The position numbers were made by a program, and so were the translations under genes. From assembly GCF_006345805.1 (NCBI RefSeq), contig NC_043000.1, positions 27,590,001-27,654,000 on the forward strand: a stretch of 64,000 nucleotides of DNA, read 5' to 3'. This stretch comes from Octopus sinensis. Its lineage: Eukaryota. This document shows, piece by piece, positions 13,205-64,000 of this stretch. Numbering within the stretch: position 1 is the first letter of the stretch; every line of letters starts with the position of its first letter. Under the pieces are notes generated by a model. That model was not told the DNA's origin, did not search any database, and saw only the letters and a program-made list of their open reading frames with translations.

Positions 13205-13870
13205 ACTAATGCTAAGAGCGTATTAGGAAAGACCTACATTGCTAGAAATAATAACTAAACCGCTCTAATGCTGTAGTTAACGCACATGAAGGAAACCATA
13301 TAAACTAAGAGGGGCAATAATCGTCCGAAAAGTGCCGATCGAGAATTCTTAATACTGACGCATCAGTTTCGGCAATTTTCGGTGTCTCATCAGCTAAGGC
13401 CGCTCGACAATTGGCTCTTTCCGGACTCGCTTCTTTATTAGTATTTATGCTTTCGTCATCCAAATAATTTATAAAATTAATACAAACAGTACTTTGCAAT
13501 ATATCCCCAAAAAGGAAAATTACAAATATCACTAAATGTGACTAGAATGTTAGGAAACATACATTCCTAGAAATAAGAGCCAAACCGCTCATGTGCGTTA
13601 ACTACCGCATTAGAGATGTTTAGCACTTATTTCTAGCAATGTACGTGTTACCTAACACCCAAGTCATATTTAGTGACATTTATAATTCGCCTTTTTGGTG
13701 AAACATTGGGAACTGCTGTTTATATTAATAAGCTTAATCTATTCTTTTTTTTTTAAATCCTGATGATTTAAAATAATATGAGAGCATTTAGTGCAGCGCT
13801 TCACAAATATACCATGGTTTCTTCACAAGCTGCGAACACTTCGGTCAACCAGCCAGCTGCTGCTGGTGAA
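13205..13870. mobile_element. Fold-back element between (TA)n tracts
   Basis: ~13237-13289 and ~13480-13590 are diverged inverted copies of ~13589-13735; hammerhead in the left (minus-sense) arm. Confidence 0.65.
13348..13398 (-). ncRNA. Type I hammerhead ribozyme
   Basis: CTTAG-CTGATGA-GACA-CCGAAAAT-TGCC-GAAA-CTGA-TGCG-TCAG-T-A-TTAAG: canonical core, 5-bp stem III, GUA cleavage triplet, one mismatch in stem II. Confidence 0.8.
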
Positions 13871-14519
13871 ATATATATATATATATATATATATATAAAC
13901 CGAAAAACAAAGACTTAAAAGCGAGCGTTAAGTTAGCCTCGCTTTGTAGCTTAGTAAATGGAGCAACGGATATCTTCTGATATAATACGAGTAGATTTTC
14001 AACCAAGAGCCTAAAATAAATTAGTAAATTCTAAAATCAATTCCATTAGGGCTATTTCGATTTAAATCTTTCTCGCCTGCCTAGAATCGTGTGTTTTCAA
14101 TATCGATTACAAATAGAGAATGCCAAAGTTAAGCCACTAAAGAGGATACACAGGGCAAGTATTTTCACGTATAAACAGACAATAGATGAACGCTGCGCAC
14201 ATATACACTTCTACAGTGGCTAAAGTGCAAGGACTTTTGTTTGGCGATGCAAAGTAATAAAAGTAATTTCCTGATATTCCTCAGTCTTTTGTTTCTATAC
14301 GTGTACATACATATATATATATGTATGTATGTGTGTGTGTGTGTGTGTACTTATATCTTTACGGTGCTTTATTTTACTGTAAATTAATACATTTGTATTG
14401 CAATATTTTACTTTTCATTGAAAATTTTAAAACTGTTCTCGGTATGTTAATGGCAAAGCGTTCAGGCGAGTATACTAGTGTATACTTGATGTAGCAACAT
14501 TTGAAATATTGTCCAGATA

Positions 14520-14594
14520 AATCTAGCTGAAGAAGACTAATCAAATTTACGATAACAAATGTATTCGAGGAGTCGGAAACCTAGGTACTAGATT
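14520..14594 (+). ncRNA. Type I hammerhead ribozyme, array copy 1
   Basis: AATCTAG-CTGAAGA-A-GACT-[~32 nt]-AGTC-G-GAAA-CCTAGG-T-A-CTAGATT; 7-bp stem I, palindromic stem III ACCTAGGT, GUA site at 14587. Confidence 0.75.
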
Positions 14595-15020
14595 ATCCGA
14601 TTTGGGGTTGCCCATTTATCTAATTTTCTTCCTAGAGGTAAGACGAAATTTTTTATGTCCGCTGCCCTCACAAGTCTTTGCCAGTATATAAACATTGTAG
14701 CTTTGCTGAAATCTAAAAATGGAAGATACATAAATATATAAACATGTGTGTGCATATGTGCCCCGATATATATGTTTGTGTGTGTGTGTGCGTGTTTGTG
14801 TGTGTGTGTGTGTGTGTGTGTGTGTGTGTGTGTGTGTGTGTGTGTGTGTACTTATATCTTTACGGTGCTTTATTTTACTGTAAATTAATACATTTGTATT
14901 GCAATATTTTACTTTTCATTGAAAATTTTAAAACTGTTCTCGGTATGTTAATGGCAAAGCGTTCAGGCGAGTATACTAGTGTATACTTGATGTAGCAACA
15001 TTTGAAATATTGTCCAGATA

Positions 15021-15095
15021 AATCTAGCTGAAGAAGACTAATCAAATTTACGATAACAAATGTATTTGAGGAGTCGGAAACCTAGGTACTAGATT
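15021..15095 (+). ncRNA. Type I hammerhead ribozyme, array copy 2
   Basis: Same motif; stem II can extend via TCAAAT/ATTTGA. Confidence 0.75.
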
Positions 15096-15482
15096 ATCCG
15101 ATTTGGGGTTGCCCATTATCTAATTTTCTTCCTAGAGGTAAGACGAAATTTTTTATGTCCGCTGCCCTCACAAGTCTTTGCCAGTATATAACATTGTAGC
15201 TTTGCTGAAATCTAAAAATGGAAGATACATAAATATATAAACATGTGTGTGCATATGTGCCCCGATATATATGTTTGTGTGTGTGTGTGTGTGTGTGTGT
15301 GTGTGTGTGTGTACTTATATCTTTACGGTGCTTTATTTTACTGTAAATTAATACATTTGTATTGCAATATTTTACTTTTCATTGAAAATTTTAAAACTGT
15401 TCTCGGTATGTTAATGGCAAAGCGTTCAGCGAGTATACTAGTGTATACTTGATGTAGCAACATTTGAAATATTGTCCAGATA

Positions 15483-15557
15483 AATCTAGCTGAAGAAGAC
15501 TAATCAAATTTACGATAACAAATGTATTCGAGGAGTCGGAAACCTAGGTACTAGATT
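15483..15557 (+). ncRNA. Type I hammerhead ribozyme, array copy 3
   Basis: Same motif as 14520-14594. Confidence 0.75.
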
Positions 15558-15734
15558 ATCCGATTTGGGGTTGCCCATTATCTAATTTTCTTCCTAGAGG
15601 TAAGACGAAATTTTTTATGTCCGCTGCCCTCACAAGTCTTTGCCAGTATATAAACATTGTAGCTTTGCTGAAATCTAAAAATGGAAGATACATAAATATA
15701 TAAACATGTGTGTGCATATGTGCCCCGATATATA

Positions 15735-61157: not shown

Positions 61158-61290
61158 TATATTGTTATCATTATTATTATTATTATTATTATTATTATTA
61201 TTATTATTATTATTATTATTATTATCATCATCATCATCATCATCATCACCATCATTATTGTTGTTGTTGTTGCTGTTGTTATTGTTATTG
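61158..61290. repeat. (ATT)n-(ATC)n-(GTT)n trinucleotide tract
   Basis: Directly visible. Confidence 0.95.
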
Positions 61291-61479
61291 TCGCATCCGA
61301 ATTGCAATAATAGTAAACATTTGTTTTCCTGGAATTACCGCCATCTTTCATAAATACACTGTCGAAAGTTGGAATTGTCACCAATCATGAATATTAAAAC
61401 TTTCTTATAGAAATGAAGATTTCAAAACATTTAGTAACTCCATAACGTCTCTTTTCTTTACCTGTTGAGTCTGTAGGAA

Positions 61480-62600
61480 TGCCAGTGCCCATGGGTCTTG
61501 CAGTCCCTTCTTCAAGACTGGTGCGACTGACGCGCTTAGAATTATGCAGCTGAAAGTCCGTATGAACTATGTCAACAGGAAGGACGAATTGGGGAAGAAG
61601 GATTGAGCAGTGAGGTTAGTGCATAAAATGTGTTCAAGGCAAAATGAGTGATGAGATTTGAAGAAACGTATCGTTCGATGATTCGTGGTGGTGTGAACAC
61701 AACATCAGCCCACACAGAGGGGCCGAGATCATTGTAACTGAGCCAGGAAATCTAAAGAGAAAACATAGCAAGGCTATGGTCTAGAGATGTGGTTTTTAAT
61801 TAGGGTCAATATGACCGTTGGAGGTCTATATAAGATTTTGCCAGCGATTTCCGGATTGGGGTTAAATCAATTACATGGACCCCAGTGCTCAGCTGGTTCT
61901 TATTTTATCAACCGCAGCGGAATTTTAACTCAGGACGTAGAGACGAACGGGATGCGTTTCAGCATTTTATCCGGCGTAGTAATGACATTGTCATCTCGGC
62001 GCCTTGCTATGCCTGAACGTGTTTCAATATTCATGTTTAGAAAAGGCGTGGTGCGAGGAAGCTTTTTTGGTGTGAACAGTACCTGAGGCTTGACTTTTAC
62101 TTTGCTGTTAAAAGGGACCCAGTGGAGGGTGCCCTAAATGGTACGATTGCATAAACAGAACATTCTTTAAAAGGAAAGTCTGTATTTATGGAATCAATGA
62201 AGATTTGGACGTAATTACTAGCTTGTATGTGGTTCGTACATGGTGAAAGAGTGTTAGAGTGGATTGAAGGGTCGTGTCATCTGCATAAGAGAGGACATGG
62301 TTGGATAACAGTGAGGGATAAACTGAATCCTAGCGGATATCTGGGTTTTTGACAGCTGGGCAAGAAGATGTTCGTCAATATATGCTGCAATGGGACCAAT
62401 CCAAGAGATAAGCACCAACCCAAAAGATAAGAGCGAGATGGAGCCCGTGAATGAAATGTTTTGCTAGATTTGCTTGCCAGACATGGGACCACCAGCTAGG
62501 AGCTTACTGGGGATGTTTCTGTCAAATGTGCTAGGAATGTTTCTATCGAAGGTACTGGGGATCCGCTAGTCGTATTGGATCCTGGTGCAAGGTCGATCAG
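61480..62600 (-). pseudogene. Decayed LINE RT and 3' end (CR1/L2/Jockey group), interrupted by a degraded SINE A (~61840-62005)
   Basis: HGLHLALIFWVGAYL; NHVLSYADDTTL at ~62270-62305; HWVPFNSK; AQSFFPNSS. Confidence 0.55.
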
Positions 62601-63075
62601 CTAATTCACCAAAACATAGGCCCGAAATTTTGGCGGGAGGGGGCCAGTCGATTAGATCGACCCCGGTACACAACTGTTACTTAATTTATCTCGCAAAATT
62701 AGAAAGTCAATAAAAGAAAATGGAGAATATAAAATGTTTAAAATTCTCGGTTTATTTTATTCTGAGTAGTAATGCAGATTAAAAGATTAAAAGATTAAAA
62801 GATATACCTATAAGAACAATTTTAAAGGTACCGCGTCAGCAAAGCAACCTAAAAATATCCCAAAAATGTCTACATATGTTTCAATGTAACAATATGAATC
62901 AATCATCAATAATTGTAACTTTTATACATGTAATATGTGATATATTCTTACATCTCTATAAGTAATTTTAGTCTTGAGTTACGAAATGACTTATTTGCGG
63001 ACTATGTTTAGGAATTTTCAAATTCAACCAAACTACTTATTAGGACGCAGAGATCATGTGAGTAGAAATTTATCA

Positions 63076-63260
63076 AGGGGCTAAACATAGAGTTGACAAA
63101 CAAGGATGAACAAAGGGATAAAGTCGATTACATCGAACCCAGTGCGTAACTGGTATTATTTAACCGACCTCGAAAGGATGAAAGGCAAAGTCGACCTCGG
63201 CGGAATTTGTATTCAGAATGGAGGGGTAGACGAAATACTATTCCGCCAGTTCGCTGCCTT
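63076..63260 (-). mobile_element. SINE family A
   Basis: Homology to 2079-2310. Confidence 0.85.
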
Positions 63261-63802
63261 ATTTATTATAACAATCATTATATAAACCATATTTAACACC
63301 AATATATAAGTATAAAATATATCTATTGATCTCTTAATCTTGTAATTATACCCTTCAATAATTTACCTTGACCCTTACTACTAATCTATAATACATATCT
63401 CAGTACTAAATAGAATATACATATAATTAACATTCAATAGACCCCAAATTTATATATATATTTAATATAACCCCTATTTTTTACATTAATGGTGTATTTT
63501 GAACACTATATCTTTTATTTCTATTTTTTATAAAATATTATAATCCAGCATTTATGACTGTTGGTACTTTTAATATATTTCAATATATAAATACGAAAAT
63601 GTAAACTACACCTACGTGGTGATATCTATTCTATCTATGAAACTTATATACATATTGCTGTGGTGAAAAACAAACTCTTTTCATTTTTAAAATTAAGGTT
63701 GATATGATTAACCATATATATATATATATATATATATAATATGTATATATATATATAATATATATATACATATATATATATATATATATATATTTTATAT
63801 AA

Positions 63803-64000
63803 TTTCAACAATTGAGGGCAAAATTAATTAATTATTAATCAATTTCACCATGTTCAGTATGCAAAGGGACCATTCAAGGCGAATTCAAATTATTACATTA
63901 TATAAAAGGCTTAGTAAAATAAATTACTTTGCCGCATACTGAACTCATTAGAAATAGCAGCTAAAAAACTTTTTTAAAGCTATTTCTAATACTTAAAGAA
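63803..64000 (-). mobile_element. End of another (TA)n-embedded element (runs off window)
   Basis: CAATTGAGGGCAAAATTAATTAATTATTAATCAATTT is the reverse of the 48120-48163-type terminus; hairpin ATTAGAAATAGC/GCTATTTCTAAT at ~63947-63990. Confidence 0.55.

What the first reader, a model, noticed from the sequence alone, without database searches (positions are those of the whole stretch)
13205..64000. Recurrent 'tail-out' fold-back insertions in (TA)n: a twin-priming-like signature shared by several families
Seen: at 13205-13870, 19085-19271, 23606-25128, 34117-34566, 47862-48166 and 48289-48543 an element in (TA)n consists of two opposed arms of unequal length. Where a hammerhead fixes polarity (13348, 23871), the left arm is minus-sense, so both outer ends are 3' ends. 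Arms stop at internal TA-like microhomologies (CTCTATATATA, GCCAATATA, TTTACGTATA, AATTGCTA). Several share a terminal CC(C)TYAATT-like motif next to the microsatellite (23608-23617, 26649-26659, 34556-34565, 48155-48163, 48289-48297, 63809-63818). Inference: both ends of a break in (TA)n prime reverse transcription on the same RNA species and the two cDNAs join head-to-head. PLE RT/GIY-YIG is the likely driver, since inverted segments are known at PLE insertions.
Basis: partly seen in the sequence, partly recalled or inferred. Interest (0 to 1): 0.85.

Follow-up and report, generated by a model that had tools for sequence, protein, structure and literature searches.

The report
Penelope retrozymes insert head-to-head, two-ended
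Small ribozyme-carrying mobile elements sit in TA repeats as two back-to-back copies, nearly always one ending at a near site and the other at a far site of the same RNA, which likely means a Penelope-type enzyme copies one RNA from both ends of a DNA break.

Summary
The six listed stretches and 63809 are five plus one families of 356-546-nt type-I hammerhead retrozymes. In samples chosen by the ribozyme alone (families A, E), 56 of 56 inverted arrays are tail-out. Outer ends are not chance TA microhomologies: each family has two fixed 3' sites, S and L, 60-120 nt apart, and 51 of 56 inverted arrays carry one of each (0 L+L). Arms come from the same sequence variant yet have independent lengths and repair-type junctions. 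Such junctions also occur in short-read contigs of three studies. A near-intact Hydra-clade Penelope-like element (PLE) has the same hammerhead-S-L layout, and short copies of its terminal repeat follow the rule; the partners of the window's own families were not found. Head-to-head inverted copies, a one-sided 'tail' and (TA)n targeting are published PLE traits, so the structure is known. New here: the near-strict one-S-one-L rule, shared template, and a predicted hairpin-CUN signal at both sites. Best reading: both break ends prime one RNA. Self-priming followed by centre deletion is not excluded.

The parts
13205..13590 (-). Family B (356-nt monomer, old) left arm, minus-sense, ends near S; hammerhead core starts at 13393
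13589..13730 (+). Family B right arm, ends at L (monomer position about 202)
19085..19194 (-). Family C (486-nt monomer) left arm, L end, with an internal deletion
19219..19271 (+). Family C right arm, S end
23608..23978 (-). Family A (477-nt monomer) left arm, L end; type I hammerhead core starts at 23909
23979..25128 (+). Family A right arm, 2.4 units, S end; hammerhead cores at 23997, 24467, 24944
34117..34445 (-). Family D (about 495-nt monomer) left arm, S end; carries a hammerhead with one core substitution near 34270-34345
34453..34566 (+). Family D right arm, L end
47862..47959 (-). Family E (546-nt monomer, young) left arm, S end
47962..48166 (+). Family E right arm, L end (about 105-nt tail)
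48289..48473 (-). Family C left arm, L end
48469..48543 (+). Family C right arm, S end
63805..64000 (-). Family F (542-nt monomer) L end of a tail-out array that continues about 3.06 kb beyond the window and ends at S
26647..26665 (-). L-like end motif beside (TA)n; membership not verified

Best explanation
These are non-autonomous hammerhead retrozymes inserted head-to-head in (TA)n with one S and one L end, likely made when a Hydra-clade PLE protein cuts the microsatellite and both DNA ends prime reverse transcription on one RNA, one at site S and one at site L. Shown: structure, polarity, two fixed ends, pairing rule, shared variant, independent arm lengths, repair-type junctions. Inferred: the RNA is a multimer or circle carrying two predicted hairpin-CUN-(AU-rich) signals 60-120 nt apart; each is held by one subunit of a dimer; the (TA)n 3' end anneals by a few bases just past the signal; the two cDNAs run independently for 25 to 4900 nt over the same sequence (no RNase H, recalled), stop, and host end-joining fuses their far ends. 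If only one end primes, a direct array ending at S or L results.
For: Tail-out 56 of 56; L+S 51 of 56, L+L 0, S+S 1 borderline, other 4 (after removing tandem duplicates). Two RNAs used freely would give about half like-with-like pairs. Query-anchored sets agree: L+S in C 20 of 24, D 11 of 14, F 10 of 10 with both ends held (14 cut by locus edges), B 9 of 14; no head-out array. L is on the left in 24 of 53, the S arm is longer in 19 of 53, truncation phases lie within 20 nt in only 7 of 53; 22 of 53 junctions hold inserted letters, 9 have microhomology of 3 nt or more (null about 6%). Arms share minor alleles: A 165 of 222 against 0.09 in shuffles (max 0.20 of 500); also E, C, D, F above every shuffle; 33 substitutions found in one sampled locus only are in all covering units of both arms (49 loci). 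Old family B arms differ as much as unrelated loci (18.7 vs 18.2%), so lasting homogenisation is not the cause. S alone ends 18 and L alone 16 of 35 direct arrays, so both act as start sites. Predicted hairpin-CUN at 6 of 10 sites vs 3 of 75 other YCUN places. Hydra-type PLE L292 has hammerhead, S about +107, L about +190, ATG +241; its short copies are S+L in 2 of 2 inverted cases and S or L in 5 direct ones; ORF-start hits on opposite strands within 10 kb are minus-then-plus in 7 of 7 pairs listed. In vitro a PLE cuts and extends both strands from two internal RNA sites and is predicted to be a dimer (PMC11167929).
Against: No autonomous partner was found for families A-F; the link to Hydra PLEs is by shared layout and by family I only. 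No empty site or target duplication could be examined. Shared alleles also follow if a cell expresses one source locus and two RNAs are used, or if one arm is copied from the other. Register tests on unit-specific variants were mixed and weak. Site registers for the fold test were picked by eye; E and D-S scored low and B did not fit. Frangieh et al. report initiation without homology to the target, whereas these ends are TA-like. Centre deletions after insertion could mimic independent arms.
Confidence: 0.6

Rival explanations
1. One end primes; the cDNA folds back or self-primes (Arkhipova 2013 proposed self-priming on an antisense template), the copy-back strand is cut by the PLE endonuclease at S and joined to the other end; later centre deletions make the arms look independent.
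For: Explains shared variants and the one-sided tail directly; 7 of 53 junctions are near-symmetric, four at self-complementary spots; Craig 2021 ascribes the tail to endonuclease-mediated resolution; long palindromes are prone to centre loss (established knowledge).
Against: 46 of 53 junctions are asymmetric even in the youngest families; S arm longer in 19 of 53; length differences run from -1263 to +3740 nt; S ends 18 direct arrays with no L arm; S and L share a predicted RNA signal.
Confidence: 0.2
2. Two-ended priming as above but on two RNA molecules from the same source locus, held by an asymmetric dimer that uses S on one and L on the other.
For: Avoids two polymerases copying the same stretch; fits shared alleles if one locus dominates expression.
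Against: Needs an extra rule to forbid L+L and S+S (0 and 1 of 56).
Confidence: 0.13
3. Two separate insertions into the same microsatellite, or later inversion by recombination or repair at (TA)n cruciforms.
For: Different families do pile into one (TA)n (L013, L035, L065; window 47862 and 48289).
Against: No (TA)n between the arms; polarity 56 of 56; S/L pairing; same variant in both arms.
Confidence: 0.03
4. MITEs of a DNA transposon, or long-read assembly palindromes.
For: Inverted ends in TA targets resemble TA-targeting MITEs (PMC4486113, listing only).
Against: Variable length, tandem units, hammerheads, unequal ends; head-to-head joints in short-read contigs of three studies, one matching locus L272 with its 9 inserted letters.
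Confidence: 0.02

Closest known systems
Inverted pLTR plus 'tail' structure of endonuclease-bearing PLEs (Arkhipova 2013, PMC3846280; Craig 2021, PMC8557442)
   Same: 5'-truncated inverted copy joined head-to-head; extension at one end only; microsatellite bias hiding target duplications.
   Different: Tail 60-120 nt rather than 30-40; counted here as a near-strict one-S-one-L rule; both arms may hold many units; seen in non-coding retrozymes.
Two internal RT start sites of Poseidon PAc (Frangieh 2024, PMC11167929)
   Same: Two start sites downstream of the hammerhead delimit the tail; both target strands are cut and extended; dimer predicted.
   Different: PAc starts in an AC-rich stem-loop without target homology; here ends are AU-rich and TA-like. 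That paper did not test pairing of the two sites within one insertion in the parts read.
Non-LTR retrozymes (Cervera and de la Pena 2020, PMC7229834; Li 2026, 10.64898/2026.07.22.740005)
   Same: Tandem non-coding repeats with type I hammerheads, derived from PLE terminal repeats.
   Different: Neither text, by term search, discusses inverted arrays or tails; here 56 of 91 arrays are inverted, and fixed ends argue for retrotransposition of multimers rather than only local amplification.
Hydra clade of PLEs (Craig 2021, section 11)
   Same: L292 has DKT, a WK motif, CxCX5C, GIY-YIG, CxxC and CxH around the end, hammerhead, short length; the clade inserts in (TA)n.
   Different: KWK instead of RWK; frameshift near the C-terminus; no phylogeny made.
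L1 twin priming (recalled; PMC2837659 listing only)
   Same: Two primers from one break on one RNA give an inverted 5' part with both outer ends facing 3'.
   Different: In L1 the arms copy non-overlapping RNA parts and the second site is set by chance complementarity; here arms overlap and both sites are fixed.

Membership tests
Non-LTR retrozyme | Type I hammerhead in each unit | tested here: met
   Motif with paired helices I and III in all six families; Rfam gave no hammerhead hit among the 150 rows shown
Non-LTR retrozyme | Tandem non-coding repeats of a few hundred nt, dispersed | tested here: met
   356-546-nt units; 169 (E) and 1563 (A) exact ribozyme matches
Non-LTR retrozyme | Self-cleavage and circular RNA | not testable with these tools
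   Only contigs were available
PLE insertion signature | Head-to-head inverted 5'-truncated copy | tested here: met
   56 of 56
PLE insertion signature | Tail at one end only | tested here: met
   51 of 56; length 60-120 nt, longer than the published 30-40
PLE insertion signature | Homology to the terminal repeat of an autonomous PLE | tested here: inconclusive
   Met for family I (L292); no match of A-F to the three PLE loci held; genome not searched exhaustively
Hydra-clade PLE (L292) | DKT, RWK-like, CxCX5C, C-terminal GIY-YIG without CCHH, hammerhead, under 3 kb | tested here: met
   Motifs read against the list; KWK for RWK
Hydra-clade PLE (L292) | Placement in the clade by RT phylogeny | not tested
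   No named reference sequences held; 619 relatives mostly unnamed
L1-type twin priming | Non-overlapping arms | tested here: not met
   Arms copy the same sequence
L1-type twin priming | Target-site duplication | not testable with these tools
   Hidden by (TA)n; no empty sites held
MITE | Fixed length with matching terminal inverted repeats | tested here: not met
   Lengths from about 140 to 6400 nt; the two ends differ

The most novel reading that the evidence does not exclude
PLEs integrate by obligate paired priming: a protein dimer grips one RNA at two repeated hairpin-CUN signals and extends both ends of a double-strand break at once, so the 'tail' is simply the RNA between the two active sites. 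This single rule would explain inverted pLTRs, the one-sided tail and rolling-circle retrozyme arrays, and gives a defined non-coding RNA module for two-ended insertion into (TA)n.
Probability: 0.45. Interest if true: 0.72.

Novelty: new variant of a known kind. Interest (0 to 1): 0.56.

Why it matters
How PLEs form their tandem and inverted structures and the tail is stated as open in the field (PMC8557442). The pairing rule, shared template and candidate RNA signal turn it into direct tests with the existing in-vitro system, and weigh against the published self-priming idea. It also means many long palindromes in TA-rich invertebrate genomes are retro-insertions, not MITEs or assembly errors.

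Tried and rejected
Rfam gave only simple-repeat miRNA hits in the rows shown; hammerheads were found by motif and pairing scan. Neptune-like PLE found from the window RT fragment (741-751-aa frames, L290, L291): no similarity to A-F. tblastn of it on held loci showed only unlinked fragments. General snap-back rejected as sole cause. TA microhomology as the determinant of ends rejected. Register test for one molecule: E L183, E L210 and A L285 fit, A L274, F L173 and one E L183 site do not; F L168 is cut at the edges; left inconclusive. No RNA holder listed on record; contigs did not show a piece bridging the window's own junction at 23978 among those listed. Ends of full-length inverted Hydra pairs and of family H could not be read, which leaves their exact S/L use open. 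Pfam did not recognise the Hydra protein. Earlier findings: nothing. PMC9977147 passages were not relevant. No structure or complex prediction was run.
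Full report
Setting. The window lies in a 2.72-Gb animal genome (G000), rich in (TA)n. Self-comparison confirmed inverted arms at the listed places. Genome searches with each element and a motif-and-pairing scan showed six families, A (23608), B (13205), C (19085, 48289), D (34117), E (47862), F (63805), each a 356-546-nt tandem unit with a type I hammerhead. 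The ribozyme fixes RNA sense for all of them; in every window element the left arm is minus-sense.

Polarity and ends, without end bias. I searched for the ribozyme core only: 169 exact matches for E, 1563 for A, none for the reversed control. All loci under the first 100 listed matches of each were read (58 E loci, 33 A loci). The script listed 95 clusters; I dropped two tandem duplicates (L211, L251) and one fragment (L213) and counted L258, split by a later insertion, once: 91 arrays. 56 are inverted and all 56 are tail-out. Outer ends fall at two sites per family, counted from the cleavage site: A about 152 and 271, E about 168 and 272, C 150 and 252, F 190 and 290, D 163 and 265, B 150 and 205. 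51 of 56 have one S and one L end, none L+L, one borderline S+S (L272), four other (two end 20-25 nt short of S). The 35 direct arrays end at S (18), L (16) or elsewhere (1). Query-anchored sets, biased for one end, give L+S in C 20 of 24, D 11 of 14, F 10 of 10 complete, B 9 of 14, and no head-out case. Within a site the junction to (TA)n varies over about 10-15 nt at TA-like registers, but longer TA runs elsewhere are not used. So microhomology tunes, and does not choose, the end.

Inner junctions. For 53 arrays (31 E, 22 A; three set aside as interrupted or lacking a defined end) the L arm is left in 24, the S arm is longer in 19, phases are within 20 nt in 7, 22 carry 1-27 inserted letters, 9 have 3 nt or more of microhomology against a null near 6%. 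This is the pattern of two independently stopped strands joined by end-joining (inference), though centre deletion of a hairpin could give the same.

One template lineage. Arms of one locus differ by 0.7% in A against 2.8% between loci and share 165 of 222 minor alleles (shuffles: mean 0.09, max 0.20); E, C, D, F also exceed all 500 shuffles; old B does not, and its arms are as diverged as unrelated loci, which argues against continuing conversion. Subfamily haplotypes never mix between arms in the A table, and 33 substitutions seen in one sampled locus only are present in all covering units of both arms (49 loci). 'Private' is relative to the sample. A register test for a single molecule was inconclusive.

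Signal. Folding predicts at both sites a hairpin ending in C, an unpaired CUN, then the AU-rich stretch where the element ends; 6 of 10 sites in A, C, D, E, F score 0.5 or more against 3 of 75 other YCUN places (p 1.5e-6; registers chosen by eye, prediction only, B does not fit).

Not an artefact. Short-read contigs from three studies hold joints from the minus arm into the plus arm: 15 of 15 shown (8 not shown), 13 at unequal phases, one identical to the L272 junction with its 9 inserted letters. One of these runs may be the assembly's own sample. The window's own junction was not shown bridged.

Driver. A Neptune-like PLE is present but unrelated to A-F. A second type, found from an ORF start beside L014, has many equal-scoring copies; L292 carries a 760-aa frame with the motifs listed for the Hydra clade (frameshift near the end), a hammerhead whose stem III nearly equals that of family D, S near +107, L near +190 and ATG at +241. 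Short copies of its terminal repeat in held loci are S+L in 2 of 2 inverted cases and end at S or L in five direct ones. Opposite-strand ORF-start pairs within 10 kb are minus-then-plus in 7 of 7 listed. A further family H shows hit ends clustered near two positions about 116 nt apart and two minus-then-plus pairs (rows only). That Hydra PLEs move A-F is inferred from layout, not shown by homology.

Literature. Seen: PMC11167929 parts 1-2 of 4 (main text); PMC8557442 passages and section 11; PMC3846280 passages; the 2026 retrozyme preprint part 1 of 5 and passages; PMC7229834 and PMC9977147 passages. Head-to-head inversion, a tail on one inverted repeat, (TA)n targeting by Hydra, two RT start sites and the PLE origin of retrozymes are all published. 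Six searches found no count of S/L pairing, no test of shared template and no paired-priming model; subscription papers such as Arkhipova 2006 are not in the library, and no supplements were read, so such a statement may exist there. L1 twin priming and the lack of RNase H in PLEs are recalled.

Verdict. Real, strongly non-random, a known PLE signature seen in retrozymes with a sharper rule than published. Paired priming on one RNA 0.6; self-priming with resolution and later deletion 0.2; two RNAs on an asymmetric dimer 0.13. Interest 0.56.

Noticed in passing
window 14351-15750: Another hammerhead repeat (463-nt unit, three cores on +) as a direct tandem whose unit includes a (TG)n run; ends are not of the S/L-in-(TA)n kind.
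   Followed up: partly
window 44593-44733: Near-perfect (98.6%) palindrome centred on a (TA)n and made of simple-repeat sequence: TA in the middle, not at the flanks; a different kind of fold-back.
   Followed up: no
window 55236-55436: Older palindrome (74%) not assigned to any family.
   Followed up: no
L260 and L282 (family A arrays): Unit variants recur with period 4 and about 5, suggesting multimeric circles copied more than once, or block duplication.
   Followed up: no
L210 (family E): Alleles alternate with period 2 along one arm, as expected from a dimeric circle.
   Followed up: partly
L002, L035, L211, L251: Whole insertions duplicated in tandem, joined at the TA flank.
   Followed up: no
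L061, L078, L271: Apparently direct arrays whose 5' flank begins with 6-12 letters resembling a tiny opposite arm; some direct arrays may be two-ended too.
   Followed up: partly
L013, L035, L065; window 47862-48543: Different families stacked in or beside the same (TA)n.
   Followed up: no
L291:3185-3737: Hammerhead repeat (family H) running into a Hydra-type ORF start that is fused to a Neptune-like ORF.
   Followed up: partly
window 52353-52493 and 8270-8575: Fragments of Neptune-like PLE protein.
   Followed up: partly
window 40670-42621: DDE transposase remnant (PF13358) between inverted repeats.
   Followed up: partly
window 11669-12199 and 17653-18000: Pif1-type helicase fragment and a reverse transcriptase fragment.
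   Followed up: partly
window 9528-11451 and 39449-40537: Tandem repeats of 425, 166 and about 629 nt without a hammerhead hit.
   Followed up: no
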